DNA of 64,000 nucleotides, from the NCBI GenBank assembly GCA_027618255.1, contig JAQCFG010000001.1, positions 1,225-65,224 of the forward strand, written 5' to 3'. This DNA comes from Cyanobacteriota bacterium. GTDB lineage: Bacteria > Cyanobacteriota > Vampirovibrionia > LMEP-6097. The notes beneath the pieces are model-generated. The model searched no databases. It had not been told where the DNA came from and saw nothing but the letters and a program-made list of their open reading frames with translations. Position 1 is the first letter of the stretch; every line of letters begins with the position of its first letter. This document shows positions 4,581 through 50,230 of the stretch, piece by piece. Made by a program: the position numbers and the translations under genes.

Positions 4581-4660
4581 AAATGACGATACCCGGGATC
4601 TCCATTTGCGCCAAAACGCAGCTTCAGAAACCAAGCCCCAAAACCTGCTAAAATTGTTAT

Positions 4661-5953: not shown

Positions 5954-6002
5954 GGTTTTCAGCTATCAAATCTTGCTCACTTCGCGTCTTGTATAAGCAT
6001 CT

Positions 6003-7049
6003 ATGGGGGATACACAAACTAGAATTAGGCCTCGAATCAATCTGCCGGAACCAGCTCCGGTCAACTCAATTTATACAATTAAACAAGGTGATGGATTAAT
6101 TTCTGCACTAAAAGCTCTAAAATCAAAAATCAAAACAGACAATGGTGGTAGAGTGCCAAGTAAATTACAGTATCTTTTTGATAAGGAATCTGCTTCATTA
6201 TATCTACATAGTCAATTCAATAAAGACAATCCTGGGCATCCAATTAAACCAGGTGACAAGTTATCAATAGACAATACTGGTAATGTCAATCTTAAACAAG
6301 CAGGGACTGAAGACAAAACCATAATCCCCAAACCACAAGAAGTTCCTGTTCTTAAATTGCCAGAGCCAGCTAAAGCAGATAGTTTCATTAACTACAATAT
6401 TTTAGATCCAGGTCACGGTAGCCACAAAGACCATAAAATATGGGGCAAAATTTTTGATTCTGGTAGCATAGCAATTCACAACGGCCTACGCAATGACGAA
6501 GAAGAAGTTGTAGAAAGGCTTGCACTAGATCACTTCAAGCCAGAACTTGATAAACAATTTCATGTGGTTACAACAAGAGACGGAGACCTCGGGGTTGAAG
6601 ATATCGATGGAAGGATCGCTAGAATTAATTCTGGAATAGCTGCAGCCAAAAAAGAAAAACCTGAATTACCAACTACTCTAATTTCAGTACATGCAAACTG
6701 GTCCTCGAAGTCAAGTGATAGTGGCATGATTATTTTTATTGCCGATGCTGATTTTAAGAACAAATCATCTGATAGTTACCAGCTAGCGAGCAAAATAGCA
6801 GGGTCAATGCAAACTCAAGCAGGACTCGCGGTAAAAATTAAATCAGATAGAGACACGAGGCACGAATCCATAGGTATTTTAAGAAGAACTCATGCTGATG
6901 CCAAAATTTTAATTGAAACTGGTTTCATGACCAACGCTAATGACATTCGTATGATGACAGAAGCAGATATCGAAGGCATGGCAGACCAAACAGAATTGTC
7001 ACAAGCACTAAGGCTAGGTTTAGCTGAATATTACAAAGAGAAACAGTAA
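6003..7049 (+). CDS. LysM-like domain plus N-acetylmuramoyl-L-alanine amidase (Amidase_3) protein
   Basis: N-terminal YTIKQGDGLISALK...PGDKLSI resembles LysM; the C-terminal region has LISVHANW and ETGFMTNANDIRMMT, matching Amidase_3. There is no obvious signal peptide. Confidence 0.55.
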   Translation: MGDTQTRIRPRINLPEPAPVNSIYTIKQGDGLISALKALKSKIKTDNGGRVPSKLQYLFDKESASLYLHSQFNKDNPGHPIKPGDKLSIDNTGNVNLKQAGTEDKTIIPKPQEVPVLKLPEPAKADSFINYNILDPGHGSHKDHKIWGKIFDSGSIAIHNGLRNDEEEVVERLALDHFKPELDKQFHVVTTRDGDLGVEDIDGRIARINSGIAAAKKEKPELPTTLISVHANWSSKSSDSGMIIFIADADFKNKSSDSYQLASKIAGSMQTQAGLAVKIKSDRDTRHESIGILRRTHADAKILIETGFMTNANDIRMMTEADIEGMADQTELSQALRLGLAEYYKEKQ

Positions 7050-7166
7050 TAGGTATAACTACTCAACCCACAAAATAAAGATAAGATAAATTTAATGTAG
7101 CTTTACTGGATGTGTGATATTATCTATATTAATTCGCAGGGATTCTATAGATTAAGGAGTAAAGCA

Positions 7167-8309
7167 ATGAGTATTGGAGAAACAATTAGAAATTTAACAA
7201 CTGGAGTCGCAGCTGCTGCAGCAGCAATAAATGCAACAGCAAATCCACCAGGACTAGCTGCAGACACCAACCCTACAAGCGTAGTGGAGCTTGCACAAAA
7301 CCAAGCACCGCAGGAAAGAATAAATCCAATACCTGACCCTATATCACAAGCTCTCGCAAAGCCAAGACCAAATACAAAACCAGATCAAGTGCCACCTCCC
7401 CCACAGCAGATTGATACATTAAATCAAGCAAAAACACTTGTCGTAGGTTTAAACGAAATCGAAACATATCTTAAGAGTGATCAAATCAAGAACTCTAAAC
7501 AACTTCTAAGTGCACTTGAACAAGTTGCTAAGACTCAGGGTTATGACATGGGCTATGCACAAGGGCTTAACGACTATAACCTAATCAGAGAAATTGTAAG
7601 AAAAATAGATAGAGAAGTCGACTACCCACTCGAAACAGAAATTGATGAAACTAATTACAGTAGAACCAGAAATACAGCAGAAGAAGCTACTCAAGCTGCA
7701 GAAGAAGCCTTTATGGCTGGAGCCAAAGGAAGTGTCTCAGCTCTAAACGCTGTTGCCAAATTTGATCTTGCAATGGAAGAGGCAGCAGCAATGATTCCTG
7801 TCTATCAACTTCCACAAAAAGGTAGTCTTACAGCAAGAATGCGCAGCCTCGTCGAAGCACTCACGCAAGAACTTGCACCAATTACATACGGAACAGACAA
7901 TCTTCCTAAATCTGTTGCAAAAGGTCCAAGATTTATTGCAGCAACAAATACAACTGATCCTTATGGTGAAGTAATAGAATTAGTTGGAAAAGGCCTTCCA
8001 GGGGCAATTGGAGCAACACTAGTAACAGCCCATAAAGCAATGTCTTCTCTTCCTAGACTTAGTTATGATGATAGAGGCAAATTGCTCAATGACGGAAATA
8101 ACATAAAAATATTTGGACTCTTAGCAAAAGTAGTTAAGGCTTATATACCTACAATCCAAATGATCTTAGATAGAGAAGCAAGATCAGAAAATGCACCGGC
8201 ACCAGTTGATCAAGAGGCCCCCGTTTTTGTTGCTCCAGTCGAGCCGAAAAATAAACAAGACAATAATAACGGGCCTTTATTTTCACCATTGTTAATTCCA
8301 CAGCAATAA
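7167..8309 (+). CDS. Hypothetical Ala/Pro-rich protein
   Basis: The ORF track starts at 7110, but an AAGGAG Shine-Dalgarno sits 8 nt upstream of the ATG at 7167. The N-terminus is low-complexity (AAAAAAINATANPP) with PPPPQQ stretches. Confidence 0.4.
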   Translation: MSIGETIRNLTTGVAAAAAAINATANPPGLAADTNPTSVVELAQNQAPQERINPIPDPISQALAKPRPNTKPDQVPPPPQQIDTLNQAKTLVVGLNEIETYLKSDQIKNSKQLLSALEQVAKTQGYDMGYAQGLNDYNLIREIVRKIDREVDYPLETEIDETNYSRTRNTAEEATQAAEEAFMAGAKGSVSALNAVAKFDLAMEEAAAMIPVYQLPQKGSLTARMRSLVEALTQELAPITYGTDNLPKSVAKGPRFIAATNTTDPYGEVIELVGKGLPGAIGATLVTAHKAMSSLPRLSYDDRGKLLNDGNNIKIFGLLAKVVKAYIPTIQMILDREARSENAPAPVDQEAPVFVAPVEPKNKQDNNNGPLFSPLLIPQQ

Positions 8310-8412
8310 GATTAATCAAAAGCATTAATCACAGATCCAACCATCAAAATATTTACCAACAAGCTAAACACCTTTTAAAATAAGGCTTTTGAGTATTGTG
8401 TAATGCACGATT

Positions 8413-9753
8413 ATGTCCGTTGTCAGGATACGACCCTGTTGCCTCTCAGAATTGAGAATAAGACCAGCTCCAGAAAATTCTTCTGGAGCTGGTTCAGCGC
8501 AATGCCCAACTCAGCATTTGGAAGCAAGGGGGCGCTTATCAATAGCTCGAAATCAAACACAAGAACAAAATCACAATTTAGATAGACCGAATCAATTTTT
8601 AACACCAGAAGAATTCAAACGGAAATTTAACACCTCGCTTGAGAATGTGCTTCTAGCTCCCAGAGCTAGGATGGAAAAAGGTGATACTGGGGCTTGTCGT
8701 ATTAACATTTCAGAAGAGTCATGGATTTTAAAAATTAGCGATAGGAAAGAAAAAGCAATAAATGAGCTTTTGATACGTAATGTTATCAATGAATTCTTCC
8801 CAAATCTACTCAGCACAACAGAAGCCTATGCTGTTGGTGCGGATGACCATACTTTATGCCTTAATCGATTTAGCCCAGCATCTAATAATCAGGAACTTTT
8901 TAACGACCTGAAGATGCAAGATAGAATTGAAATCTCAATACTTGCTCTTGTATTTGGTGTTAAAGATTTCAATTCTGGTAACATCTTATTTAAAGATGAT
9001 CAAACACCTGTATTGATAGACTTTGAAACCACTCATCATAGTCCAGAAAATTACAAAATTTATAAAAGAGGGAGGGAACTATTGCGTGAGAAATATCCAT
9101 ATATTTTAAGTGAAATGGATCCGACTAAATTAGATCAATATAAAGCTAAACAACGAGAATGGTTAAAAATAGTTAATGACGATAGTTTTAGAGCAAGGCT
9201 TTTTGAAATAGTGAAAATTTCAGGTGGGGATGAAACTATGGCAAAAATTTATTATGAGACTATCAAAAGAAATTTAAGTAATTATGAAAGAACATTACAA
9301 CTCTTAACAGAAATGAAAAGCTTAGGTATTCCTAAGACTGAATTAAATTCTTTGGGCTGGAAAGGTGGAATAAATAGTTTGAATTTTGACGAAAATACTA
9401 GTATCTTTGATACTGGAAAGAAACTTGAACTTAAAGAGGGTGAGCAATTGCTTCTAGAATTTGCTTCAGATGGAGTATTACTCATTGAATATGATGGACA
9501 ATCCTTTAAATTTCTATACAGGGATAATCATAGACAAGTGGAGAAAACTAGACAGGTAGGATGTGAATTTAAAATTGGTACGAGTGCTGATTCTAATGAT
9601 GTCATTATTTGTTTAAAAGATGAGGCGGGAGAAAAATGTCCTTGTGACTTAAATATAAGCCTAGCCGCAAATGGGAGAATCACTTTTAAACATCGACAGC
9701 CAGAACAAACAAATAATGTGAGGTTAATAGGTGTCTTTGCTAATAATCTGTAG
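8413..9753 (+). CDS. Protein-kinase-like fold protein (APH/ChoK/PI3K-like catalytic motifs); the start is uncertain and is probably near 8671
   Basis: Motifs WILKISDRKEKAINELL, KDFNSGNILF (catalytic-loop-like D-x-N-x-G-N-I-L) and VLIDFE (DFG-like). The first 87 codons contain a perfect 12-bp hairpin and no Met until codon 87. Confidence 0.4.
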   Translation: MSVVRIRPCCLSELRIRPAPENSSGAGSAQCPTQHLEARGRLSIARNQTQEQNHNLDRPNQFLTPEEFKRKFNTSLENVLLAPRARMEKGDTGACRINISEESWILKISDRKEKAINELLIRNVINEFFPNLLSTTEAYAVGADDHTLCLNRFSPASNNQELFNDLKMQDRIEISILALVFGVKDFNSGNILFKDDQTPVLIDFETTHHSPENYKIYKRGRELLREKYPYILSEMDPTKLDQYKAKQREWLKIVNDDSFRARLFEIVKISGGDETMAKIYYETIKRNLSNYERTLQLLTEMKSLGIPKTELNSLGWKGGINSLNFDENTSIFDTGKKLELKEGEQLLLEFASDGVLLIEYDGQSFKFLYRDNHRQVEKTRQVGCEFKIGTSADSNDVIICLKDEAGEKCPCDLNISLAANGRITFKHRQPEQTNNVRLIGVFANNL

Positions 9754-9808
9754 AGAAACTGAAGAATAATTCTGGCCATTTTACAAATAATTTCTTATAA
9801 TTATCAAT

Positions 9809-10144
9809 ATGAAATACTTCCTATACTGCCGTAAGTCCACTGACTCAGAGGATAGGCAAATGCTTTCTATTGAAGCCCAGCTTCAAGAACTTCGAGACTA
9901 TGCTCGTAAAGAGAAGCTTGATGTAATCAAAGAATTCACTGAATCCAAAACAGCAAAGAAACCTGGTAGAGAAATTTTCAATGAAATGATCTCAGAGATT
10001 GAAGCTGGTAAGGCTGATGGCATAGTAGCTTGGAATCCAGACAGATTAGCTCGCAACTCAGTCGATGGTGGAAGAATAATTTATCTTATTGATGAAGCTG
10101 TAATAAAAGATCTCAAATTTCTGGTTCTTGCTCTGAGATTTTAG
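9809..10144 (+). pseudogene. 5' fragment (N-terminal ~105 codons) of a large serine recombinase gene
   Basis: Its product aligns residue for residue with the first 105 aa of the intact recombinase at 15540..17171 (about 85% nt identity, including the promoter region from ~9770). Similarity ends near 10123, then 6 unrelated codons and a stop follow. Confidence 0.7.
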
Positions 10145-10298
10145 CTACTGCATCATAGCCAAGTTTTTCGATTGCACCTTTTAGTTTTCTTGAATTTGCT
10201 CCAAGGGCTTCGTATCCACTTAAAACTACTGATTTTGCTAAATTTCCTACGCTGATATTACTGTTGCTCATGTTTATATAACTATATTGTACTTGCAA
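10113..10298 (-). CDS. Small hypothetical protein
   Basis: 61-aa ORF immediately downstream of, and on the same strand as, the 366-aa gene; there is no other support. Confidence 0.25.
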   Translation of the reverse strand: MQVQYSYINMSNSNISVGNLAKSVVLSGYEALGANSRKLKGAIEKLGYDAVAKISEQEPEI

Positions 10299-10307
10299 TT
10301 TTGATAG

Positions 10308-11408
10308 TTATTTTGAATTACTCTCTTGAATTTGAGCAAAAAGTTCGCCAAGATCGACAATTTTTTTACCTTCAAATTTTTTCTGAAAGTACTCATCTGC
10401 ATCTTCAGTATTTGCAATAAAGCAACCTTGTTCTTGGATTAATCTTTCTAATTCTTCTACACTTTGCTTTTTAATTGACGATCCAATTTGTGCAGCAAGC
10501 CTGTGACTGTTTGCTAAAACTTTTGCTTGTGTTTGGCTTGAATTAAATCCTGATTCTCCAGAGTGGGCTACCGCTTCTGCTTCTAGGTCTGAATCAATAT
10601 AGCCATCGAGTAGTCTTGCAAGTTCAGTGTTATATAGTCTATGTAAAGTTCCTTGAACTCTATCTTTTCTAGCACCTTTACGAAAATCATTTCTTAAAGC
10701 TTTCCAGAGCATTACTTTTTCTTTTCTAGTAGCTTTATCTTTAAAATCTTGATAACTTTTATAACCAAACTTTTTAGCTTTAGATTCAGCTAGAGTTTTC
10801 AACTCGAAACTTTCCCTTAAAATCCCTTTCTTTTCCATGTAAGTAAGTGCCTTATGGTAGTCACGAAAAGTCTGAATTCGTTCTGGACTTAAACTAGGTC
10901 TTCTGTGTTTCAGTAAGGCAAGTTGTTCTAATGTTTTTGGATAGCTGACACCAATATCTTGCGCATTACCTGATGCTGCTGCCTCAAAATATTGTTGAGT
11001 ATGTTTGAGCTCATGTTTTAGTATCGTTTTGATTTTGTCTAAGCTTAACTTACCTCTTGTTTTGATACTGTTTATTTCAACAATAATTGAATTTGTTTCT
11101 GGTGAATAAGCTGCACTAAATTCTTGCTCAGATTTTTTTGAATTGATAATATATACGTCAGGTTTAAACTCTTTTGGAATTCCGAGTTCTTGTGCTTCTT
11201 TATCTATGACTTTGGCTAAAAAATTTTGTAACCTTTGTGTTTCTTTATCTCTAGAATTACTTAAGCTCATCAATGAAATTTCTGCTCTAGTTTTTAAAGG
11301 TCTTAATTTTCTTTTCAGTCGTTTTGGAAATTCTTCAAGCTGTTTATCCAGCCCTAGCCGAGAGGCAAACCCCATACTTGTGCAAGCTAATTGTTGAATT
11401 CTACTCAT
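10308..11408 (-). CDS. Hypothetical Lys-rich protein with an HExxH motif
   Basis: 366-aa ORF containing LKHELKHTQQ, a possible zinc-metallopeptidase motif; no other recognisable domain. Confidence 0.4.
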   Translation of the reverse strand: MSRIQQLACTSMGFASRLGLDKQLEEFPKRLKRKLRPLKTRAEISLMSLSNSRDKETQRLQNFLAKVIDKEAQELGIPKEFKPDVYIINSKKSEQEFSAAYSPETNSIIVEINSIKTRGKLSLDKIKTILKHELKHTQQYFEAAASGNAQDIGVSYPKTLEQLALLKHRRPSLSPERIQTFRDYHKALTYMEKKGILRESFELKTLAESKAKKFGYKSYQDFKDKATRKEKVMLWKALRNDFRKGARKDRVQGTLHRLYNTELARLLDGYIDSDLEAEAVAHSGESGFNSSQTQAKVLANSHRLAAQIGSSIKKQSVEELERLIQEQGCFIANTEDADEYFQKKFEGKKIVDLGELFAQIQESNSK

Positions 11409-11733
11409 GACCTTTCTATATAAAGATAAGTTATTGAAATTATTGATATTTTTAGGTGTTTTTGCTTATGACTTTTTGTAGCTACTAGCGCGCCACTTCG
11501 TGGCTTGCATCCTTTTGATTTTTTAGCTCCGTTTCATCTGTCTGCTTTACTAACGGCTACAGCAGCCATGATGAAACGAAGCCAAAAAATACAGTGTTAG
11601 CTAATGGGACAGCAGAGAGGGTGTTAAGAAAGACCGCTCTTCTGTCTGCTCGCGTCTCAGCCTCGAGCAAGCGAGCAGCCCAAAGGGCTGCGAGCGTTCC
11701 CAGTTAGGCTTGGCTGGGCTTGAGGTGGGTAAA

Positions 11734-11928
11734 TGGCGCGTCCGGAAGGATTTGAACCTTCGACCATGGTCAAGCCAAATACAATTACCAGTTTACTCAA
11801 TAGACCTAAATCGGCTAAAGCCGAAGTGAATTTTTAATATGTGATTTGCTTTGCAAATCACTGGTTTTGAGAGCACTTCTAGGCTTTTAACCGATTGATC
11901 GAGGGCTAGATCTTGCGAACACTCCTCT
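11734..11928. repeat. Island-end repeat unit A (tRNA 3'-end-like ~30 nt, a spacer with hairpin gtgatttgctttgcaaatcac, and a degenerate tRNA-Lys-like anticodon arm in the opposite orientation)
   Basis: Near-identical to unit B and about 80% identical to unit C. It starts with tggcgcgtccggaaggatttgaaccttcgacc, the reverse complement of a tRNA T-arm, acceptor 3' strand and CCA. Confidence 0.7.
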
Positions 11929-11968
11929 AAAAAACAAAAAGAACCCTAAAGGGCTCTTTTTGTTTTTT
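11929..11968. terminator. Bidirectional intrinsic terminator palindrome (A-run, 17-bp stem, T-run)
   Basis: aaaaacaaaaagaaccc-taaa-gggctctttttgttttt; it has the same architecture as the palindrome at 17363..17402. Confidence 0.6.
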
Positions 11969-11972
11969 AATT

Positions 11973-12160
11973 GTGCGTCCGGAAGGATTTGAACCTTCGA
12001 CCATGGTCAAGCCAAATGCAATTACCAGTTTACTCAATAGACAATAGTGGCTTGACCAAAATCGGCTAAAGCCGAAGTGAATTTTTAATATGTGATTTGC
12101 TTTGCAAATCACTGGTTTGAGAGCACTTCTTAGCTTTTAACTAATTGATCGAAATTCAGA
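11973..12160. repeat. Island-end repeat unit B
   Basis: Second tandem copy of unit A; it contains cttagcttttaactaattg, a degenerate tRNA-Lys anticodon stem-loop. Confidence 0.7.
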
Positions 12161-12176
12161 TTCTACTGGCTACTCC

Positions 12177-12355
12177 ACATCCCCGCAGCCAACTGGCATT
12201 CCGAGCCCCTTATCGGTTGCCCGCTTCCAGGGATTCTTGTGTTCTCAGCTTCCCCACTAGTGTATTTTGCTCTAGGAATTTTTTGAGAGCATAGCTCTGG
12301 CTGCTGTGTAACAGGAATACAGGCAGAGATATGCTCGATAAAAAATTCCATGGCA
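12177..12355 (-). pseudogene. Inverted copy of the last ~176 bp of the serine recombinase gene (left arm of an inverted repeat)
   Basis: It is the reverse complement of 16975..17150 with only a few mismatches. The spurious ORF 12163..12351 encodes SGQPIRGSECQLAAGM, identical to the recombinase C-terminus. Confidence 0.75.
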
Positions 12356-12592
12356 AAGCAAGGAGGAGCAGAGCGACGACGCGCTAGTTTCTGTCAGCGA
12401 GGGCTTTAGCTTAGCCTGTCCAGAGGAGCGTAGCGACGTAGGGAAAGCAATCTCCCAACTTAAGCTACTAACAGCCCTAAAGTGCCACTTCAGACTTTAT
12501 AGCACAACCTTATTTCAGCACGTGGAGCAAGACGCAAGGTGGCTTGCGGAACCCAGTTGAGACAAGTGAAACGCAGGCTCAACTGGAAAAAA

Positions 12593-14935
12593 TCAAGAAG
12601 TAACTTTTTCTTTTAACTGATTCAGTTTTTGTTCTTTCTGTTCTTTAATTTGTTGATTATTAGGGTCATCAAAAGAGACAAAATTTGAACACAAGGCATT
12701 ATAATGCTCTTTATCTTTCAGCTCCAAACACTCAACAATATTTTTTATAATTTGGCTACATTCGTTTATGTCAGAATGTTTGATAAAACTTTCACTAGAT
12801 CCACTATGAGAATAATTATGTACAAACTTTTCTATTCGAGTTGCCTGTATTTTTTCATCAATTAAAAAATGTAACTTTGAAGACCAAGATTTTGAATCTG
12901 GGCATTTCATTCCCAAATATGCCTCCAAAAACTTTCTAATAATATTCCCCAATATATAATGTTGTTCAAACTCCGCGGAAGGATTTTTATAAAATTTATG
13001 AATTAAATAAAAAAGATAAATATATTCCGACTTAAATTTCTTAAGCTGCCAAGGTAGCTTTTTGATTGAAGATGAATTTTTATACTTATTGTGTGTCCTT
13101 TCAATAAAGTAAAACGGTGCTTCATCAAGTTTATTGTTGTTTTGCAACTTAAGTTTTTCTTTGATAAAATCCTTAACCAAATTAAAGAATTCTAGATTAT
13201 GAGTAGAAATAAAAAGTTGTTTGCATTGATTATCTCCCAACCTTTCCCTAATAAAAGAGTACACATTATACAAATGGTTACTATCAAGACTAGAAATTGG
13301 GTCATCAATAAAAACAACAGTTTCAGAAAGATTTGTATTTTTATCTTCTAGGCTAGCAATAAAATAAGCAAAGGATATTGCTGTCTTCTCACCTTCACTT
13401 AAATTTTTGGCCGGCTTGTTGTCTCTTAATAATTTAAAAAGGCCTTTTTCATTAGTTTCAAATACCAAGTTGTCACTATTAAATAGGATTTGCAAATATT
13501 CATTTACTTTCTTAGCCCCATTTGCATTTTCAGAAAGCCTATTCTCTAAACTCACAATTTCAGACTTTAATTCACATATCAGAGTTTTCTTTTCAGATAT
13601 TAACTTCTCTTGTTCTTTTATAAGCTCTTGATTATCTATATAGTTCGTATCATTAATAAATTCATGTGCAAAGTGTTGTATTAATTTCTCTTTCAATAAT
13701 TCTCTCTCTGAATTAAAGTTATTTGTTTTTGCATTGTGCTTATCAATCACTTGATTGATTTTTTCTACAATATTCCTAATCACCTCTACTTCAGTTTTCT
13801 CAAAATCTCTTAAATCCCTAGGTGTCAATTCCTCAAAAGGATTTTCACTTTTTTGCACTAGGCAGGCCTTTAAGTTTTCAAGATATTCAGTAGAAACAGC
13901 AAGTTCATTTTTTAATATACCTTTCAAATTTTCATATTCTAATTGGAAATCATCATAGAATCTTGCTTTATCAATTAACCTTACATCTATCTCGTTAATC
14001 ACTTTAATTTTTTGATCTATCTGGTCTTTTAGTAGGTTTATTTCAGTACGTAATTTGCTCAGATCATCTGAAAAATGTTTTTCTAGCTTCCCGATTAAAT
14101 CAGCGGGTAATTTATTACCACAAAATTTACAATTATCACTATCTTTATGTAAATCCTTACCATGTTCAACCCATCTATTAAGTTCGGTATTTTCCAATAA
14201 CTTCTCTATGGTTTCTGCAATTGGTTTTTTCACCAAAAGTTCTTCTGTTCTTTGGTAAAGATTTTCACTATCAATTTTCAGCAGTATTAAAAATGATATA
14301 CCTTCTTTGACATTTGTATCTTGATAAGAGCGTATCGCTCTTTGTAGAGCATCATCTGTAAGTATTTTGTTCTCATCATTTTTTAGTACAGCACTTTCAA
14401 CATAAGGAATAAATCTATTTTTATCAAAGTTAACAATTGACAAAAGGTTCTTTATATTACTGGCTCTTTCAGAAAGAGATTTTATTAAATTCTGTTGGAG
14501 TAATCCTGTCTCTCCAGCTAAATTAACTAAACTTTCATTCTCTACCTTCAGTTCGTTAGCTTTAGAGCTTAACCGTTCTTGAAGCTCAATATTTTGTTCA
14601 CCAAGAATAAAGATAGGTTGAATCTCATCATCTTGCTGATGCCATTTTAAATTTCTATCTATAAAATCGATATTAAAAACCCTTATATCAATTACCTGAG
14701 TTAGGTCTGAACTTGATTTCAGTCCTTTTTCAGTTTCAAAAACAAACTCTGCATTAGGGTAGTCCTCATGCCTCTCTTGTCTCTCAAAACATTGAAAGAT
14801 ACGGGATAAAGAAGTTTTTCCAGTGTAATTCCAGCCATATATAAGATTATATTTTTCAAAATTTGGCAGCGATTCACTCCAAGTGAAATCCTCAAAGACT
14901 GCAAATTTCTTTATTGTATCTATCTTCACTATCAC
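12593..14935 (-). CDS. AAA_13-family ABC-type ATPase with a coiled-coil CxxC zinc hook and a C-terminal PrrC/RloC-like anticodon nuclease region (RloC-like)
   Basis: The N-terminus KKFAVFEDFTW...NLIYGWNYTGKTSLSRIF carries the AAA_13 Walker A. Also present are a DSDNCKFCGNKL zinc hook in the coiled coil, LSEGEK, VVFIDDPISSLD, FISTHNLEFF, and a C-terminal GNIIRKFLEAY motif (R-x3-E) followed by His residues about 35 aa later. Confidence 0.6.
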   Translation of the reverse strand: MIVKIDTIKKFAVFEDFTWSESLPNFEKYNLIYGWNYTGKTSLSRIFQCFERQERHEDYPNAEFVFETEKGLKSSSDLTQVIDIRVFNIDFIDRNLKWHQQDDEIQPIFILGEQNIELQERLSSKANELKVENESLVNLAGETGLLQQNLIKSLSERASNIKNLLSIVNFDKNRFIPYVESAVLKNDENKILTDDALQRAIRSYQDTNVKEGISFLILLKIDSENLYQRTEELLVKKPIAETIEKLLENTELNRWVEHGKDLHKDSDNCKFCGNKLPADLIGKLEKHFSDDLSKLRTEINLLKDQIDQKIKVINEIDVRLIDKARFYDDFQLEYENLKGILKNELAVSTEYLENLKACLVQKSENPFEELTPRDLRDFEKTEVEVIRNIVEKINQVIDKHNAKTNNFNSERELLKEKLIQHFAHEFINDTNYIDNQELIKEQEKLISEKKTLICELKSEIVSLENRLSENANGAKKVNEYLQILFNSDNLVFETNEKGLFKLLRDNKPAKNLSEGEKTAISFAYFIASLEDKNTNLSETVVFIDDPISSLDSNHLYNVYSFIRERLGDNQCKQLFISTHNLEFFNLVKDFIKEKLKLQNNNKLDEAPFYFIERTHNKYKNSSSIKKLPWQLKKFKSEYIYLFYLIHKFYKNPSAEFEQHYILGNIIRKFLEAYLGMKCPDSKSWSSKLHFLIDEKIQATRIEKFVHNYSHSGSSESFIKHSDINECSQIIKNIVECLELKDKEHYNALCSNFVSFDDPNNQQIKEQKEQKLNQLKEKVTS

Positions 14936-15068
14936 TATCAGGCATCCATTCTATCAAGTAAGTCTCTAATTACTTTTAAACTATATATTTGAGTGAAAAC
15001 CCTCAGTGGTCTTATTTTAATATCAAAAAACCTCAACTGCTAGACTTATATAGTCTAGAGGAAATTTT

Positions 15069-15485
15069 ATGTCTGGTATCACAAATTTAGGTCACATAGT
15101 AACAGATAGAGCTAACGTAGCGCAGGATATTCAAACTAGAGACAAAGTCCGTGAGTTTGGCGATATTGTTGCTGGTGTTTTATCAGGAGCTAATGACGGT
15201 GAACCAAAAGCAAGCTCCCCTGAAGACCAAGCTGCTGCTACAAGATATGCAGCAAATGTTGCAGGAGCACATTTGCTAATGGGAACAGGCAATGTCACAC
15301 CAAAACAAGCTAATCAGTTAAAAAATGACGCTGACTTTGCAAGAAGAGCTGCTGGAGGCGATGAAGTTATTTTAGAGGATGTTATCAAAGTTGCTGAACA
15401 AGTTGCCAATAATGGAGATCCAGAAGTTGGTGGGACTATGATTCTATCGGTTGCAGAGCATCTAGGTAAAATTGCACAATCTTAG
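15069..15485 (+). CDS. Hypothetical Ala/Gly-rich protein, divergent from the RloC-like gene
   Basis: 138-aa ORF with a low-complexity N-terminus MSGITNLGHIV, similar in style to other uncharacterised proteins in this window. Confidence 0.35.
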   Translation: MSGITNLGHIVTDRANVAQDIQTRDKVREFGDIVAGVLSGANDGEPKASSPEDQAAATRYAANVAGAHLLMGTGNVTPKQANQLKNDADFARRAAGGDEVILEDVIKVAEQVANNGDPEVGGTMILSVAEHLGKIAQS

Positions 15486-15539
15486 GAACAAGCAAATTTT
15501 ACTGGCCATTTCTTTTTTAGTTTTGTATAATCCATAATA

Positions 15540-17171
15540 ATGGATAAATATTTTATTTACTGTAGGAAATCCTCCGACTCAGAGGATAGACAAATGCTTT
15601 CTATTGAAGCTCAATTACAAGAACTCAGAGACTATGCTCGTAAAGAAAAGCTTGAAATAGTTAGAGAGTTCACCGAGTCTAAAACAGCGAAGAAACCTGG
15701 CAGAGAGATCTTTAATGAAATGATCTCAGAGATTGAAGCTGGTAAGGCTGATGGGATAGTAGCCTGGAATCCAGATCGCTTAGCAAGGAACTCTGTTGAT
15801 GGTGGAAGAATAATTTATCTTATTGATGAAGCTGTAATAAAGGATCTTAAGTTTCCGACTGCTTGGTTTGATAATTCACCTCAAGGCAAATTCAATCTCT
15901 CTATAGCTTTTGGGCAAGCAAAATTTTATGTCGATAATCTTAGACAGAACGTTCATCGTGGCATACGCCAGAAACTACGCAAAGGACAGTATTGCAATAA
16001 AGCTCCTCTTGGATATATTAATCACCCTAAAACTAGAACTATAGAACCTGATCCTGTTGAGTTTGACTTGATGAGAAAAACTTTTGATCTATTCCTTACT
16101 GGAAACTGTTCACAGACTGAGATTCGACAAGCAATGTTTGAAATGGGAATTAAGAATCAAACTGGTGATAGAATCCACAGAGATAAAGTAAAAAAGACTC
16201 TTCAGAATCCATTTTATTATGGCTACTCCTATCACAAAGGAGAACTCTACGAAGCCTCTCACCAGCCTATGATAACAAAAGCTGAGCATGAAGAAGTACA
16301 AAGAATCCTAAAACTCAAATCTAAGAACAAATACAAAACTACTAAGAAGGATAAGAAGAAAAGAGATTTCTTTTTCTTAGGTTTTGAGAAGTGCGGTGAG
16401 TGTGGCTGTAGTTTTACAGCAGAAAGACATGAAAAGAAAAAATATAACGCAGTCTGGAAATATTACAGATGCTCTAAGAAAAAGAAAGACATGGATTGCG
16501 ATCAACCTTACCTCAAAGAAGAAATACTTTCTGGGCAAGTAAAAGATACTGTCTCAAGGATAGCCTTAAGTGATGACTGGAGCGAGCTTGCGCTTAAGAC
16601 TCTAGACTCCTGGGCAGACACAGAGCGACAGTCATCACTTAAAACAGCCAAGAACCTTGAGTCAGATCTAAAAATCATCAGAGAAAAGCTTGAAAGGCTA
16701 CTAGATCTTCATTTGGATGGTGTTTTATCATCTGGTGAATACAAAAGCAAAAAAAATGCTCTAATAAGCTCCAAGCTAAAACTTGAAACTCAGCTCTCTC
16801 AAATCAAACAAGACGGTGTAGTTTGGCTCGAACCAAGCAAGACACTTATAAAAGAAGCTAATAGAGCCAAGAAATTAGTTGAAGAAGAAAATTATCACGA
16901 AATGCGCTCTTTACTTCAAAAAGCAGGCTCGAACCAATTAATACGAGATAGAAAGTTCAGCATGAACTACCTTGAGCCATGGAATTTTCTTATCGAGCTA
17001 AACTCTTCATTCCTGTTACACAGCAGCCAGAGCTATGCTCTCACTGAATTACCTTCAGAAAATGCGCTAGTGGGGTGGGCGGGAATAAAAAAATCCCCGC
17101 GCAGCGGGCAACCGATAAGGGGCTCGGAATGCCAGTTGGCTGCGGGGATGTCAGAATGGTGCGTCCGCTAG
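15540..17171 (+). CDS. Large serine recombinase (resolvase/invertase catalytic domain, recombinase domain and zinc ribbon)
   Basis: The N-terminus YCRKSSDSEDRQMLSIEAQ carries the catalytic Ser context; CGECGCS...YYRCS is the zinc ribbon; there is a C-terminal coiled coil. The stop codon lies inside repeat unit C. Confidence 0.8.
   Translation: MDKYFIYCRKSSDSEDRQMLSIEAQLQELRDYARKEKLEIVREFTESKTAKKPGREIFNEMISEIEAGKADGIVAWNPDRLARNSVDGGRIIYLIDEAVIKDLKFPTAWFDNSPQGKFNLSIAFGQAKFYVDNLRQNVHRGIRQKLRKGQYCNKAPLGYINHPKTRTIEPDPVEFDLMRKTFDLFLTGNCSQTEIRQAMFEMGIKNQTGDRIHRDKVKKTLQNPFYYGYSYHKGELYEASHQPMITKAEHEEVQRILKLKSKNKYKTTKKDKKKRDFFFLGFEKCGECGCSFTAERHEKKKYNAVWKYYRCSKKKKDMDCDQPYLKEEILSGQVKDTVSRIALSDDWSELALKTLDSWADTERQSSLKTAKNLESDLKIIREKLERLLDLHLDGVLSSGEYKSKKNALISSKLKLETQLSQIKQDGVVWLEPSKTLIKEANRAKKLVEEENYHEMRSLLQKAGSNQLIRDRKFSMNYLEPWNFLIELNSSFLLHSSQSYALTELPSENALVGWAGIKKSPRSGQPIRGSECQLAAGMSEWCVR
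16975..17150. repeat. Right arm of the ~176-bp inverted repeat (the recombinase 3' end)
   Basis: Reverse complement of 12177..12355. Confidence 0.75.
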
Positions 17172-17359
17172 GATTTGAACCTAGGACAATGGTCAAGCCA
17201 AATGCGATTACCAGTCAACCCAATGTCCTTAGGGCTTGACCAAAATCGGCTAAAGCCGAAGTGATTTTTTTATGTAATTTGCTTTGCAAATTACTGGTCT
17301 GAGAGCACTTCTTGGCTTTTAACCGATTGGTCCCGGGTTCAGGTTCTAGTGGAAGTACC
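17156..17359. repeat. Island-end repeat unit C (31 nt identical to the tRNA-Lys 3' end, a spacer with hairpin, and a pseudo tRNA-Lys 3' half in plus orientation)
   Basis: tggtgcgtccgctaggatttgaacctaggac matches 17405..17435. Downstream, gagagcacttcttggcttttaaccgattggtcc mimics the D-arm and anticodon arm of tRNA-Lys(UUU). Confidence 0.7.
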
Positions 17360-17362
17360 TTA

Positions 17363-17402
17363 AAAATCAAAAATCACCCACAAGGGGTGATTTTTGATTT
17401 TT
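17363..17402. terminator. Perfect 18-bp palindromic intrinsic terminator (A-run, stem, T-run) abutting the tRNA-Lys 3' end
   Basis: aaaaatcaaaaatcaccc-acaa-gggtgatttttgattttt. Confidence 0.65.
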
Positions 17403-17404
17403 AA

Positions 17405-17481
17405 TGGTGCGTCCGCTAGGATTTGAACCTAGGACCAATCGGTTAAAAGCCGAGTGCTCTACCGGGCTGAGCTACGGACGC
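17405..17481 (-). tRNA. tRNA-Lys (anticodon UUU) with encoded CCA
   Basis: Reverse complement GCGTCCGTAGCTCAGCCCGGTAGAGCACTCGGCTTTTAACCGATTGGTCCTAGGTTCAAATCCTAGCGGACGCACCA folds by hand into a cloverleaf with a 7-bp acceptor stem, anticodon loop CTTTTAA and T-loop TTCAAAT. Confidence 0.85.
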
Positions 17482-17600
17482 GTATTTAATACGCGCAGAC
17501 GCAAATAGTGTCCTTCTGGTCGTTCAGGACACTAGGCTCAAATATATCATGTGATTTTTGTATGTTTCTGAAGACTTTCTGAATTTTAGCCAGAACTGGT

Positions 17601-18923
17601 CTAGTAAACTAAGGGCAAATCAGTCCACTTAGAGGTAAAACACGGCGACCGATGCCCCTGCTTGGCGTTCCAGCCTGGTTTCTGCTCTTTATTAGAGCGC
17701 TTAGCGCCACTCGCTGCCCAAAACACCGTATTGAGCCCCAATGATAAATTCAGACCATCAACCAAATTAGACAGCTCTTGTTTTTGTCCCGTATTACTAA
17801 CTTGAGCATCCCAAATTGCCAGCTGCCGATCATCCTTATTAGCAAAATTGCTCAGAACCACTCCTGCCTTTCTATAAGAAAGCCCCTCTTCAAAAATATC
17901 ATCCAATATTACAAAAGCAGCTCGAATCAAATCAGGAGTATAAGAAGTTGGCTCCGCAAAATTATAATCAGCGGCAAGCTCTCGACCTCTGTAATGAGAT
18001 GCATCATCTGCCCGTAAAAAAATCTGCAAGGATTTCAATTCTTGATTTTGCACTCGAAGCTTCATCGCGGCACTAGCAACAAAACTGGCAACAGCCTCTC
18101 GCAGTTCTGGTAAAGTCTTGACTTTCGCACCAAATGATCTTGAACAAATGATGGATTTGTTTTGACTAGTGATTGCAGTTGCATCCAAGTCCAAACAAAC
18201 TTTGCCAGCAAGCTCCAAGACAGTGCGCATCGCATTGATACTAGCAACTTGCTTGAGCCAATCTCTATCAACATATTTCAAATCAAGAGCCGTCTTAATC
18301 CCTCTCTGGCTGAGGGTTCTCTGATAACCGCGACCAACTCCCCAAACATCAGCGAGCTCAACTTCTGACAAACAAAAATCAATTTGTGCTTCAGCCAAAG
18401 CCAAATCACTTTGATCAAAATACAAACTATAAACTCCAGTTCCATTTTCTTTGGCTATCTTGTTAGCGACCTTGGCAAGAGTCTTGTTTAGAGCAATGCC
18501 AATTGAAACAGGAATACCGGTGCAGCGTTCTACTTTGTTTTGAATTTGTTTGGCGCGAGTAATTAATTTACTTGGGCTATCCTTGGTCGTGTCCCCGAGT
18601 AAAACAAAGGCTTCATCGATTGAATATATTTCTTTGTGCTCCACTTCTTGGGCAAGTACCGACATCACTCGAGTTGACATATCACTATAAAGAGCAAAAT
18701 TGGAAGAGCGCTTATGTACTTGGTGTTTCCTGAAAATATACTCCAGCTTGAAAACCGGTTCACCCATTGCAATACCAAGGGCTTTTGCTTCCCGGGAGCG
18801 AGCAATTACACAACCATCATTATTTGATAAAACCACCACTGGTTTATTTTTCAAGCTCGGGTCAAAGACCCTCTCGCAAGAAACAAAAAAACTATTGCAA
18901 TCTAATAAAGCAAAAACCTTCAC
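17601..18923 (-). CDS. umuC: Y-family translesion DNA polymerase UmuC
   Basis: The N-terminus [20 protein letters not shown]...[23 protein letters not shown] and the SIDEAF catalytic motif are near-canonical for UmuC. Confidence 0.8.
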
Positions 18924-19249
18924 TCATAACCTCGTATCGAATGCAAGACCACTCCCCACAGCTCTTCTTGCTGACCGGCTTTGCAGTCAGAGAAACGCAT
19001 TAACAATAATTCAGTATCGCCATTAACAACAATCAAACTTGATGCCTTTGGAGTAATTGATCTATCGACAATTAGAAGATCACCATCATTAATACCCAAG
19101 TCTTGATGTCTTTGACCACTCATACGCATCACAAAACTAGCAGAAGGGTGACGTAAAAGATAACGATTAAAATCCAAAGCAAAATCGAATTGCTCCGCTT
19201 GTTCAAATGAGCCCATCTGCTCTGAATTCATAAATCGTAGTCCTGCCAT
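18920..19249 (-). CDS. umuD: UmuD-like protein (S24 LexA-like fold) of UmuD' length that apparently lacks the Ser/Lys dyad
   Basis: [36 protein letters not shown]...GVVLHSIR aligns with E. coli Umu[37 protein letters not shown]...GVVIHVVK. The gene overlaps umuC by 4 nt. Confidence 0.6.

Positions 19250-19972: not shown

Positions 19973-20047
<75 letters not shown>

Positions 20048-50153: not shown

Positions 50154-50230
<77 letters not shown>

What the first reader, a model, noticed from the sequence alone, without database searches (positions are those of the whole stretch)
9770..17404. Composite, partly decayed integrative island stacked on the 3' side of tRNA-Lys(UUU)
The window contains a bona fide tRNA-Lys(UUU) gene at 17405..17481 on the minus strand. 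Three ~190-nt direct repeat units sit on its 3' side, at 17156, 11973 and 11734. Each unit begins with a copy of a tRNA 3' end of about 30 nt (T-arm, acceptor strand and CCA). Unit C matches tRNA-Lys exactly over 31 nt; units A and B copy a paralogous 3' end with the same acceptor stem.

Between the repeat units lie cargo genes: an intact large serine recombinase, a 780-aa RloC-like ATPase/nuclease, a 138-aa protein and a 366-aa HExxH protein. There is also the decayed 5' third of a second recombinase gene with its promoter, sharing about 85% nt identity with the intact copy. This is the signature of repeated site-specific integration of related elements at one tRNA, with older copies eroding; the serine recombinase is the best candidate for the integrase. 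I consider this the main accessory locus of the window.
Basis: partly seen in the sequence, partly recalled or inferred. Interest (0 to 1): 0.75.

Follow-up and report, generated by a model that had tools for sequence, protein, structure and literature searches.

The report
Serine-integrase cassette docked beside tRNA-Lys
This is a real mobile-DNA locus beside a tRNA-Lys gene, driven by a little-studied clade of serine integrases that insert at the end of tRNA genes using an attachment site inside their own coding sequence and that also carry an inverted spare copy of that site.

Summary
tRNA-Lys(UUU) lies at 17405-17481(-). Three ~200-nt direct units each start with a tRNA 3' end copy; unit C matches 31/31 nt (33 with flank). 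There is an intact large serine recombinase (LSR), a 5' remnant of a second one, and cargo.

- Each unit is a quasi-palindrome of two head-to-head tRNA-Lys-like arms around a conserved hairpin.
- Convergent arms are separated by a 20-bp-stem palindromic terminator (twice), or by a 5-kb cassette, 12177-17151. The cassette has 175-nt inverted ends (outer 49 nt identical) and carries the LSR, a PDC-S06/PrrC-like ATPase and a 138-aa ORF.
- The inverted copy of the recombinase 3' end is a conserved part, not decay. It occurs in 54/56 related loci.

Family evidence:
- In 52/66 related loci the recombinase ORF runs into a convergent tRNA.
- attL, spare-attP and attR triplets share a 5-7-nt core at the CCA end.
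- The T-loop-like motif shows the canonical 5-bp attP/attB shift.
- One element was found both as an 8,026-bp circle and integrated at tRNA-Ala (recombinase 99.6% identical).

I found no description of this architecture in the searched literature.

The parts
17405..17481 (-). tRNA-Lys(UUU), complete. Its 3' end faces the terminator and the repeat array.
   Evidence: ARAGORN; Rfam tRNA 70.9 bits.
17360..17404 (.). Terminator 1. A perfect palindrome with 20-bp stems and a 5-nt loop, with an A-run and T-run on either side. It lies between arm R_C and the tRNA-Lys 3' end.
   Evidence: Inverted repeat I8, 100% complementary; sequence.
17155..17359 (+). Unit C. Arm L_C spans 17157-17266: an exact 31-nt copy of the tRNA-Lys 3' end on the minus strand, then a 52-nt hairpin insert, then an anticodon-arm-like stretch. 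The central hairpin is at 17274-17294. Arm R_C (17297-17359) is a plus-strand tRNA-Lys-like sequence from the D loop to the 3' end.
   Evidence: inverted repeats I3 and I7.
15540..17171 (+). Intact large serine recombinase, 543 aa. Its stop codon lies 15 nt inside arm L_C.
   Evidence: PF00239, PF07508 and PF13408; invariant Y7 R9 K10 S11; a 100% identical database protein, P0001, from a MAG named 'Cyanobacteria bacterium'.
16976..17151 (+). IR-R, the right inverted end of the cassette. It is the last ~175 nt of the recombinase ORF.
   Evidence: Inverted repeats I1 and I2; blastn 84% over 181 nt; outer 49 nt identical to IR-L.
15069..15485 (+). 138-aa ORF directly upstream of the recombinase, with no family match. 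It is cargo, or possibly an accessory or directionality factor.
   Evidence: No hit in Pfam, PADLOC, NCBIfam or PHROGs; also present in contig L094.
12593..14935 (-). 780-aa AAA_13 ATPase, a candidate anti-phage defence gene of family PDC-S06 with a PrrC-like C-terminal region. It is cargo of the cassette.
   Evidence: PF13166 461.7 bits; PDC-S06 544.7 bits and PrrC E = 1.9e-12.
12177..12354 (-). IR-L, the left inverted end of the cassette. It is an inverted copy of the recombinase 3' end, conserved as DNA rather than as an ORF.
   Evidence: Indels shift the reading frame while the outer 49 nt stay identical. The same feature occurs in 54/56 related loci.
11969..12176 (+). Unit B. Arm L_B starts at 11972, the hairpin is at 12092-12112, and arm R_B ends at 12176. 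R_B abuts IR-L in tRNA register.
11929..11968 (.). Terminator 2, a palindromic hairpin homologous to terminator 1 with compensated stem changes. It lies between arms R_A and L_B.
   Evidence: Direct repeat D4 (75%) and inverted repeat I4; sequence.
11732..11927 (+). Unit A. It is 96-98% identical to unit B in the repeat blocks D2 and D3, and it lacks 14 nt. Its hairpin is at 11841-11861.
11484..11740 (.). Conserved non-coding stretch that abuts the CCA-end side of unit A. A related locus has the same stretch beside its own palindromic unit.
   Evidence: blastn against L007 8981-9214, 75% over 260 nt, inverted; sequences.
10308..11408 (-). 366-aa ORF with an HELKH motif and no family match. It flanks the array, and its membership of any element is unproven.
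   Evidence: The ORF next to the shared non-coding stretch in L007 is not homologous.
9787..10121 (+). Promoter and 5' third of a second recombinase gene, truncated after ~105 codons. It is closer to the L007 recombinase (83%) than a simple copy of the intact gene would be.

Best explanation
The locus is a docking array for a mobile cassette driven by a large serine recombinase (LSR).

What the family does:
- The recombinase belongs to a clade found mostly in CPR/Patescibacteria metagenomes.
- Its attP lies inside the 3' end of its own ORF. The layout is a P arm (the last ~100-170 coding nt), a 5-7-nt core that is the antisense of the tRNA CCA end and discriminator (often read as Trp codons), and a P' 'tail'.
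- In most relatives the tail encodes a conserved peptide, LLxxVRTxFxxNP. Its DNA imitates the tRNA T loop, placed 5 bp further from the core than in a real tRNA.
- Integration joins the P arm to the tRNA body, so the ORF then reads into tRNA antisense. The tail moves to the far end of the element.
- Every element also carries a second, inverted P arm-core-tail copy upstream of the recombinase gene. The recombinase segment is therefore a cassette with long inverted ends.

What the window shows:
- The arms on both sides of the cassette are tRNA-Lys-derived sequences in tRNA register.
- The region reads: non-coding stretch | L_A-hp-R_A | terminator 2 | L_B-hp-R_B | cassette 12177-17151 | L_C-hp-R_C | terminator 1 | tRNA-Lys.
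- That makes three pairs of convergent tRNA-like 3' ends. Two pairs hold only a palindromic terminator. One pair holds the cassette, with the recombinase, a PDC-S06/PrrC-like defence ATPase and a 138-aa ORF.

Shown: the anatomy; the family-wide att logic; the existence of circular and integrated forms in a relative.

Inferred: that the window cassette arrived by LSR recombination at a tRNA-like arm, either by a single crossover at L_C or by a double crossover exchanging it for a terminator; that the array grew from earlier events; and that the 5' recombinase remnant at 9787-10121 is debris of an older copy.
For: Evidence in the window:
- Anatomy of the units, terminators and inverted ends.
- The cassette occupies the position of the terminator. 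Compare R_A|term2|L_B and R_C|term1|tRNA with R_B|cassette|L_C.
- An independent contig, L094, confirms the layout.
- Contig L002 diverges exactly at the CCA end of L_C.

Evidence from the family:
- 52 of 66 metagenome loci with a complete ORF end have a convergent tRNA at that end. Thirteen tRNA types are represented.
- 54 of 56 loci carry an inverted copy of the recombinase 3' end, with median length 103 nt and median identity 98%.
- attL, spare-attP and attR triplets with a shared core were aligned in 14 loci.
- Database proteins occur in a tail form and a tRNA-fused form.
- P0091 (tail form) is 99.6% identical over 505 aa to the tRNA-Ala-fused recombinase of L018, and the two diverge exactly after the WW core.
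- P0091 sits on an 8,026-bp circularly permuted contig with a perfect 448-bp inverted repeat. That contig is 99.8% identical to the integrated L018 copy up to the core.
- The T-loop-like YCGAAC motif is 5 bp further from the core in the tail than in the tRNA in 17 of 21 loci by script. Reading the sequences of two of the four exceptions also gives 5 bp. This is the published rule for the zinc-ribbon-domain motif in attP versus attB (PMC3783163).
- L010 (recombinase 52% identical) repeats the window's full layout at tRNA-His: a unit array, a palindromic unit, an inverted recombinase 3' end, cargo, the recombinase, then the tRNA.
- L068 has the cassette between two complete convergent tRNA-Ser genes.
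- In L026 an element is inserted at the tail of another element.
- Relative to the shared non-coding stretch, the cassette has the opposite orientation in the window and in L007.
Against: - No circular form, empty site or flipped form of this particular cassette was recovered.
- The exact crossover in the window is unresolved. The right junction carries an extra CAGAA(T), a 6-nt shift rather than 5, and both unit arms are in tRNA register rather than in the shifted P' register seen in relatives.
- How solitary unit-plus-terminator modules arise is not explained by any single conservative recombination step.
- The 45 nt that replace the cassette in L002 match nothing else fetched, so that variant is uninterpreted.
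- The only close relative (78% identity, L007-L009) is disrupted by an ISL3 insertion.
- The genome-contig scan gave no near relative.
- Recombinase activity, and any role for the tail or for the spare copy, is untested.
Confidence: 0.75

Rival explanations
1. Classical tandem accretion. Related islands integrated one after another into tRNA-Lys. Each supplied a new ~31-nt tRNA 3' end and left the old one as attR, so the units are plain att scars bounding successive islands.
For: - Direct 31-33-nt copies of the tRNA 3' end lie in the same orientation as the tRNA.
- Units A and B carry a different but self-consistent T stem and a homologous, compensated terminator. This is what a 3' end and terminator imported from a related genome would look like.
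- A truncated second recombinase gene is present.
Against: - No tyrosine integrase was found among the 20 ORFs scanned between 55 and 22814.
- In relatives, the serine-integrase junctions share only a 5-7-nt core.
- Homology between units runs ~200 nt and includes an inverted second tRNA-like arm, which a scar model does not predict.
- Nothing but a terminator lies between units A and B, or between unit C and the tRNA.
- The cassette has long inverted ends and replaces a terminator precisely.
Confidence: 0.12
2. A resident invertible switch. The recombinase flips the 5-kb segment between the 175-nt inverted repeats, as a DNA invertase would, and the tRNA-like units are fixed local repeats. No integration or excision is involved.
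For: - Inverted repeats flank the segment, and their outer 49 nt are identical.
- The inverted copy is near-universal and nearly perfect in the family.
- The cassette orientation relative to the shared non-coding stretch differs between the window and L007.
Against: - The family shows clear attL and attR junctions at 13 different tRNA types.
- A circular form and an integrated form of one element were both found.
- The protein has large-serine-integrase architecture, not a small invertase with a C-terminal HTH.
- Inversion may well occur in addition, but it cannot be the whole story.
Confidence: 0.08
3. The units are an independent small element (MITE-like) or small-RNA genes derived from tRNA-Lys. 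On this view they merely lie next to an unrelated recombinase island.
For: - The units are quasi-palindromic, with terminal inverted tRNA-like arms.
- The central hairpin keeps pairing through a compensated change: GTGATTTGC/GCAAATCAC in A and B against GTAATTTGC/GCAAATTAC in C.
- Terminators follow two of the units.
Against: - There are only three copies in 64 kb, and all lie at this locus.
- No Rfam family matches.
- Both cassette ends abut unit arms at the base that corresponds to the tRNA CCA end.
- Analogous palindromic units sit beside related recombinases in L010 and L007.
Confidence: 0.05

Closest known systems
Phage and ICE large serine integrases (PhiC31, Bxb1, A118/LI, TP901-1; also CcrAB, XisF)
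   Same: - Same three-domain architecture and catalytic motif.
- Best NCBIfam hits are XisF and Ccr, all far below their cutoffs.
- In relatives the att sites follow the published attP/attB rule: the zinc-ribbon-domain motif is shifted by 5 bp.
   Different: - At most 28% identical to anything in the phage or plasmid collections.
- The targets are tRNA gene 3' ends of many identities rather than one protein-coding gene.
- attP lies inside the integrase ORF.
- A second, inverted attP-like copy is always present.
- Many elements are little more than the recombinase gene.
SSV-type ('suicidal') archaeal integrases
   Same: The recombination site lies within the integrase ORF, the targets are tRNA genes, and integration alters the integrase gene (PMC7253208 abstract).
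   Different: - Those are tyrosine recombinases of archaeal viruses and plasmids, and their gene is split into two inactive parts.
- Here a serine recombinase in bacteria loses only a ~17-residue tail.
- Here a spare inverted copy of the P arm and tail is kept next to the gene.
Tycheposons and other tRNA-associated islands of cyanobacteria
   Same: Cargo- and defence-carrying elements at tRNA genes, with partial tRNA repeats in a cyanobacterial genome. A minority (27 of 937) carry a large serine recombinase (10.1101/2020.12.28.424599).
   Different: The tycheposon hallmark is a tyrosine recombinase with direct partial-tRNA repeats. No inverted-end cassette, intragenic attP or palindromic arm pairs are described in the passages read. 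Relatedness of the recombinases was not tested.
Cassette exchange between paired inverted att sites (engineered RMCE), and inverted-repeat flipping as in the 2-micron plasmid
   Same: A segment is bounded by two inverted recombination sites. In L068 it is seen between two convergent tRNA genes, and it occurs in opposite orientations in related loci. The circular form has a perfect 448-bp inverted repeat.
   Different: These are analogies of layout only. No exchange or flipping reaction has been shown here. That RMCE uses inverted att pairs, and that Flp flips the 2-micron repeats, comes from my own knowledge and not from a tool result.
PrrC/RloC anticodon nucleases (for the 780-aa cargo)
   Same: AAA_13 ATPase with a PrrC-like C-terminal match. 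From general knowledge, PrrC's known substrate is tRNA-Lys.
   Different: The best match is the uncharacterised candidate family PDC-S06. There is no linked type I restriction-modification system. RloC-specific features were not tested.

Membership tests
Large serine recombinase / serine integrase | N-terminal resolvase catalytic domain with the nucleophile serine motif | tested here: met
   PF00239 E = 9.4e-22; Y7, R9, K10 and S11 invariant across 27 homologues.
Large serine recombinase / serine integrase | Recombinase domain plus zinc-ribbon domain C-terminal to the catalytic domain | tested here: met
   PF07508 E = 1.8e-11 and PF13408 E = 5.3e-11.
Large serine recombinase / serine integrase | Short attP and attB sites in which the zinc-ribbon-domain motif is 5 bp closer to the centre in attB | tested here: met
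   Met in relatives: the offset is 5 bp in 17 of 21 loci, matching the rule in PMC3783163. For the window's own junctions the result is inconclusive, because the right junction shows a 6-nt shift and the arms are in tRNA register.
Large serine recombinase / serine integrase | Conservative exchange at a 2-bp central dinucleotide, giving attL and attR without target duplication | not testable with these tools
   Junction triplets share a 5-7-nt core. The cleavage position cannot be read from sequence.
Classical tRNA-integrating genomic island (tyrosine integrase) | A tyrosine integrase gene next to the tRNA | tested here: not met
   None of the 20 ORFs scanned between 55 and 22814 matched a phage-integrase family.
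Classical tRNA-integrating genomic island (tyrosine integrase) | Direct repeats of the tRNA 3' end bounding the island | tested here: met
   A 33-nt exact repeat at 17155-17187 and 17403-17435, plus diverged copies at 11732 and 11969.
SSV-type integrase elements | attP inside the integrase ORF, so that integration changes the gene | tested here: met
   Shown in relatives. In the window the ORF ends 15 nt inside arm L_C.
SSV-type integrase elements | Tyrosine recombinase fold in an archaeal host | tested here: not met
   The domains are those of a serine recombinase, and the hosts are bacterial.
DNA invertase switches (Hin/Gin type) | Small serine recombinase with a C-terminal HTH, acting on short inverted sites | tested here: not met
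   The protein is 543 aa with recombinase and zinc-ribbon domains. Inverted repeats are present, but they are 100-450 nt long.
PrrC/RloC anticodon nuclease (780-aa cargo) | AAA_13 ABC-type ATPase domain | tested here: met
   PF13166 461.7 bits, covering 2-711 of 713 profile positions.
PrrC/RloC anticodon nuclease (780-aa cargo) | PrrC-type C-terminal nuclease domain | tested here: inconclusive
   The PADLOC PrrC model scores E = 1.9e-12 over residues 474-756, but PDC-S06 models score 545 bits. Catalytic residues were not checked.
PrrC/RloC anticodon nuclease (780-aa cargo) | Embedded in a type Ic restriction-modification operon (PrrC), or carrying a coiled-coil zinc-hook insert (RloC) | tested here: not met
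   The neighbours are the 138-aa ORF and non-coding DNA, with no hsd genes. The RloC insert was not examined.
Tycheposons | Hallmark recombinase and replication genes, integrated at a tRNA with partial tRNA repeats | not tested
   Only the tRNA association and the partial repeats are shared. A minority of tycheposons carry an LSR. No sequence comparison was made.

The most novel reading that the evidence does not exclude
This LSR clade uses the universal end of a tRNA gene (the CCA end plus the T loop) as attB. It keeps attP inside its own ORF, so that integration swaps the enzyme's C-terminal tail. It also carries a second, inverted attP, which makes the recombinase segment a reversible, exchangeable cassette.

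On this reading, the tRNA-like arms left behind act as further landing sites. Elements would then build multi-pad docking arrays, such as the three arm pairs beside tRNA-Lys here and the five-unit array beside tRNA-His in L010. The tail swap or the cassette flip may set the direction of recombination in elements that encode no other protein.
Probability: 0.35. Interest if true: 0.8.

Novelty: new variant of a known kind. Interest (0 to 1): 0.7.

Why it matters
- Serine integrases are major genome-engineering tools, and each known one has its own fixed target. A clade that reads conserved tRNA features, and spans at least 13 tRNA types with the same site logic, would show how target choice evolves. 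It would also offer compact, apparently single-protein integration modules.
- An attachment site inside the integrase gene, plus a spare inverted copy, is a bacterial serine-recombinase counterpart of the archaeal 'suicidal integrase' design. It suggests a new way of controlling direction.
- For genome annotation, it explains why contigs of CPR bacteria, and of this cyanobacterial MAG, break at tRNA genes. It also explains why many recombinase ORFs end in tRNA-antisense peptides such as DSNPRPP.
- For this genome, it identifies a 5-kb mobile defence cassette and its docking array.

Tried and rejected
- **Collection scans and exact look-ups.** Exact look-ups of the recombinase and of the amidase found nothing on record.
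- **Family searches.** Rfam at E <= 1 over 9000-18500 gave only the tRNA and spurious microRNA-like hairpin hits. PHROGs, NCBIfam and PADLOC gave nothing for the 138-, 366-, 399- and 446-aa ORFs.
- **IR-L as a small protein.** I considered that IR-L (ORF 12163-12351) encodes a small protein equal to the recombinase C-terminus. I rejected this because indels shift the frame and only the last ~16 residues match, while the outer 49 nt are identical as DNA.
- **Terminators as collapsed cassette ends.** I considered that the palindromic terminators are collapsed remnants of cassette ends. I rejected this because they share no similarity with the inverted ends and have the A-run, GC-stem, T-run form of ordinary bidirectional terminators.
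- **A shared 366-aa gene in L007.** I first thought the 366-aa gene travels with the element because a gene follows the same non-coding stretch in L007. I rejected this because blastp found no similarity.
- **The unit as a known RNA type.** I considered the unit as an intron-containing or permuted tRNA, or a tmRNA. ARAGORN and Rfam do not support any of these.
- **tRNA-Lys-like arms as decoys.** The idea that the arms act as decoys for the PrrC-like nuclease was not testable and has no support beyond adjacency.
- **The L002 variant.** The 45-nt variant flank in L002 matched nothing in the window or in any fetched locus.
- **Literature.** Six full-text searches found no description of tRNA-targeting serine integrases with an intragenic attP.

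Full report
**1. Checking the observation**

ARAGORN finds tRNA-Lys(UUU) at 17405-17481 on the minus strand, and Rfam scores it at 70.9 bits. Repeat finding and alignment confirm three direct units: A at 11732-11927, B at 11969-12176 and C at 17155-17359. Their mean column identity is 82%. Three core motifs of 20-29 nt each occur exactly three times in the 64-kb window, with none expected by chance.

Unit C starts with an exact 33-nt copy of 17403-17435, which includes the last 31 nt of the tRNA. Units A and B keep the acceptor strand but carry a different, internally compensated T stem.

The intact recombinase at 15540-17171 has the three domains of a large serine recombinase. The ORF at 9809-10144 is the first third of a second copy. 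It is 85-86% identical in DNA and shares the promoter elements. The 780-aa ORF is an AAA_13 ATPase, and the 366-aa ORF contains HELKH. An independent 5,364-nt contig from the same metagenome is colinear with 11813-17176 at 99.98%.

**2.

Each unit is itself a quasi-palindrome (inverted repeats I3 and I7).
- The left arm (L) is a minus-strand tRNA-Lys 3' part. It consists of the T arm, acceptor strand and CCA, then a 52-nt hairpin insert, then an anticodon-arm-like stretch.
- The centre is a 21-nt hairpin. Its stem changed by a compensated pair between A/B and C.
- The right arm (R) is a plus-strand tRNA-Lys-like sequence from the D loop to the 3' end.
- The two arms therefore point outward.

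Convergent arms of neighbouring units face each other across a palindromic terminator.
- R_A | 11929-11968 | L_B.
- R_C | 17360-17404 | tRNA-Lys. This terminator has a perfect 20-bp stem (I8).

Between R_B and L_C there is no terminator. Instead there is a 5-kb segment, 12177-17151.
- Its two ends are inverted repeats of about 175 nt (I1 and I2).
- The right end is the 3' end of the recombinase ORF, and the left end is an inverted copy of it.
- Indels put the left copy out of frame, yet its outer 49 nt are identical to the right end. It is therefore kept as a DNA site, not as a gene.
- The recombinase stop codon lies 15 nt inside L_C.

**3. Relatives**

The exact protein is on record from a MAG labelled 'Cyanobacteria bacterium' (P0001). 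Other homologues are 40-52% identical and, where named, come from CPR/Patescibacteria. One homologue is 78% identical. Nothing in the phage or plasmid collections exceeds 28% identity.

I fetched 80 metagenome loci using an alignment of homologues and analysed them by script.
- In 52 of the 66 loci whose ORF end lies inside the contig, the ORF runs into a tRNA gene on the opposite strand. Thirteen tRNA types are represented, led by Ser, Ala, Pro and Val.
- In 54 of the 56 loci with more than 200 nt upstream, an inverted copy of the recombinase 3' end lies upstream of the gene. Its median length is 103 nt, its median identity 98% and its median distance from the start codon 96 nt.
- In two of those loci, cargo of 2.3-4.5 kb lies between the inverted copy and the recombinase gene.

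**4. The attachment-site logic**

The inverted copy extends about 6 nt into the sequence corresponding to the tRNA CCA end.

Beyond that point, the upstream copy does not continue into random flank. It continues into a conserved reading frame, x-L-L-x-x-(V/I)-R-T-x-F-x-x-N-P-stop, with synonymous differences between loci. A GC-rich hairpin follows.

Database proteins come in two C-terminal forms.
- One ends in this tail, for example ...NSIWW-CLLDDVRTFFEQNPEDFAD.
- The other ends in tRNA-antisense translation, for example ...WW-TxxDSNPRPPxCK.

In loci with enough left flank there is a third tail copy. It is in direct orientation, lies 0.8-5 kb further left, and is preceded by unrelated DNA. Aligning the three junctions in 14 loci gives a clean set:
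- B flank-core-tail;
- P arm-core-tail (inverted);
- P arm-core-tRNA.

The shared core is 5-7 nt, for example TGGCGG in L073.

The T-loop-like motif YCGAAC lies exactly 5 bp further from the core in the tail than in the tRNA. The script finds this in 17 of 21 loci, and reading the sequences of two of the four exceptions also gives 5 bp. This matches the published rule that the zinc-ribbon-domain motif in attB is shifted 5 bp towards the centre relative to attP (PMC3783163).

**5. Circular and integrated forms of one element**

P0091 (tail form) is 99.6% identical over 505 residues to the tRNA-Ala-fused recombinase of L018. The two diverge exactly after the WW core.

P0091 lies on a 12,034-nt contig with a 3,955-nt terminal direct repeat. 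That indicates a circle or tandem of 8,026 bp. It carries a DpnII-type restriction-modification system and a KAP NTPase, and it has a perfect 448-bp inverted repeat covering the P arm, core, tail and hairpin. The contig is 99.8% identical to the integrated L018 copy up to the core.

This is direct evidence for site-specific integration with attP inside the recombinase ORF.

**6. Loci that illuminate the window**

- **L010** (recombinase 52% identical, on a 1.04-Mb contig) repeats the window's layout at tRNA-His. It has five ~208-nt tandem units, each with a terminator and 19 nt of the tRNA-His 3' end. These are followed by a ~205-nt palindromic unit, an inverted recombinase 3' end, a cargo gene, and the recombinase overlapping tRNA-His by 12 nt.
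- **L068** has the recombinase segment between two complete convergent tRNA-Ser genes, so both P arms are joined to real tRNAs.
- **L026** has one element inserted at the tail of another, so tails can serve as secondary targets.
- **L007** (recombinase 78% identical, disrupted by ISL3) has a palindromic unit next to a ~260-nt non-coding stretch that also abuts unit A in the window. Relative to that stretch, the recombinase segment has the opposite orientation in the two loci.

**7. Reading the window**

Both arms of the window's units are in tRNA register: GAAC lies 21-24 nt from the TGG, as in the real tRNA. The left cassette junction (IR-L | R_B) is also in tRNA register. The right junction has an extra CAGAA(T) between the inverted repeat and L_C. 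These readings come from the sequences.

The most economical description is three pairs of convergent tRNA-like 3' ends.
- Two pairs hold only a terminator.
- One pair holds the cassette, as in L068.

Contig L002, from the same sample, is identical from the UmuC side through tRNA-Lys, terminator 1 and unit C. It diverges exactly at 17155 into 45 nt that match nothing else. Occupancy at that junction therefore varies in the population.

The cargo is a 780-aa ATPase and an unassignable 138-aa ORF. The ATPase's best match is the candidate defence family PDC-S06, with a weaker PrrC match.

**8. What is shown and what is inferred**

Shown:
- the anatomy of the locus;
- the family-wide tRNA association, the inverted copy and the junction triplets;
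- the 5-bp motif shift;
- a circular form and an integrated form of one relative.

Inferred:
- that the window cassette moved by the same reaction;
- whether it arrived by one crossover at L_C or by exchange with a terminator;
- how unit-plus-terminator modules multiply;
- whether the spare inverted site serves flipping, cassette exchange or repair of the tail.

Unresolved: the crossover position in the window.

**9. Comparison with known systems, and novelty**

By domain content the enzyme is a member of the large serine recombinases, and its relatives obey the attP/attB spacing rule.

The design resembles archaeal SSV-type integrases, which also carry the recombination site inside the ORF and target tRNA genes (PMC7253208). 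Those are tyrosine recombinases, so this is a functional analogy and not membership.

Tycheposons are cyanobacterial tRNA-associated elements, and a minority carry serine recombinases. No such architecture appears in the passages I read.

Six full-text searches found no description of tRNA-targeting serine integrases with an intragenic attP and an inverted spare copy. The library lacks most subscription-journal papers, so this is absence of evidence only.

I rate it a new variant of a known kind.

**10. Verdict**

- The finding is real, and it is the main accessory locus of this part of the window.
- The interest lies less in the island itself than in the integrase family it exposes.

Noticed in passing
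window 11484-11740; L007 8981-9214: A ~260-nt GC-rich non-coding stretch with internal hairpins abuts the CCA-end side of a palindromic unit in both loci (75% identity, inverted). The genes next to it are unrelated between the two loci. Its function is unknown.
   Followed up: partly
L096 1-12034: A circularly permuted contig implies an 8,026-bp circular element. It carries a DpnII-type restriction-modification system with two methyltransferases, a KAP NTPase, an HTH protein and the recombinase. A perfect 448-bp inverted repeat divides it into a recombinase segment and a cargo segment.
   Followed up: partly
L068 33-1940: The recombinase segment lies between two complete convergent tRNA genes, tRNA-Ser(GCU) and tRNA-Ser(UGA). 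Both inverted ends are joined to tRNA CCA ends.
   Followed up: partly
L010 7283-8235 and 3679-4151: Five tandem ~208-nt units lie downstream of the element at tRNA-His. Each has a terminator plus 19 nt of the tRNA-His 3' end. Separately, there is a perfect 2 x 236-nt tandem repeat further left.
   Followed up: partly
L002 11770-11814 (equivalent to the window just left of 17155): A contig from the same population replaces the recombinase end with 45 nt that match nothing in the window or in any fetched locus. The contig ends there.
   Followed up: partly
L007 7377-8640: An ISL3-family transposase insertion interrupts the 3' end of the closest homologue of the window recombinase (78% identity).
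   Followed up: no
L017 and L020, recombinase ORF ends: The recombinase ORF reads through the antisense of two adjacent tRNA genes (Ala and Ile) before it reaches a stop, giving a 60-residue tRNA-antisense extension.
   Followed up: no
window 17601-19249 (-): A UmuD-like (Peptidase_S24) and UmuC-like (IMS, IMS_C, DUF4113) pair lies immediately on the 5' side of tRNA-Lys. tRNA-Gln follows at 19973-20047. No unit-like repeats occur near tRNA-Gln or near tRNA-Met at 50154.
   Followed up: partly
window 3873-9753: A run of same-strand genes lies left of the recombinase remnant: an unknown 235-aa ORF, a PIF1-like helicase, an Amidase_3 protein, and unknown 399- and 446-aa ORFs. GC content dips to 0.33-0.35 in places. 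This may be older island material. The helicase matches PADLOC candidate families (PDC-S68, RecD-like).
   Followed up: no
window 12593-14935 with the R arms at 11868-11905, 12118-12155 and 17300-17337: A PrrC-like ATPase is carried next to sequences that preserve a near-perfect tRNA-Lys anticodon stem-loop (GGCTTTTAACC). From general knowledge, PrrC's known substrate is tRNA-Lys. This may be coincidence, and no test was possible.
   Followed up: no
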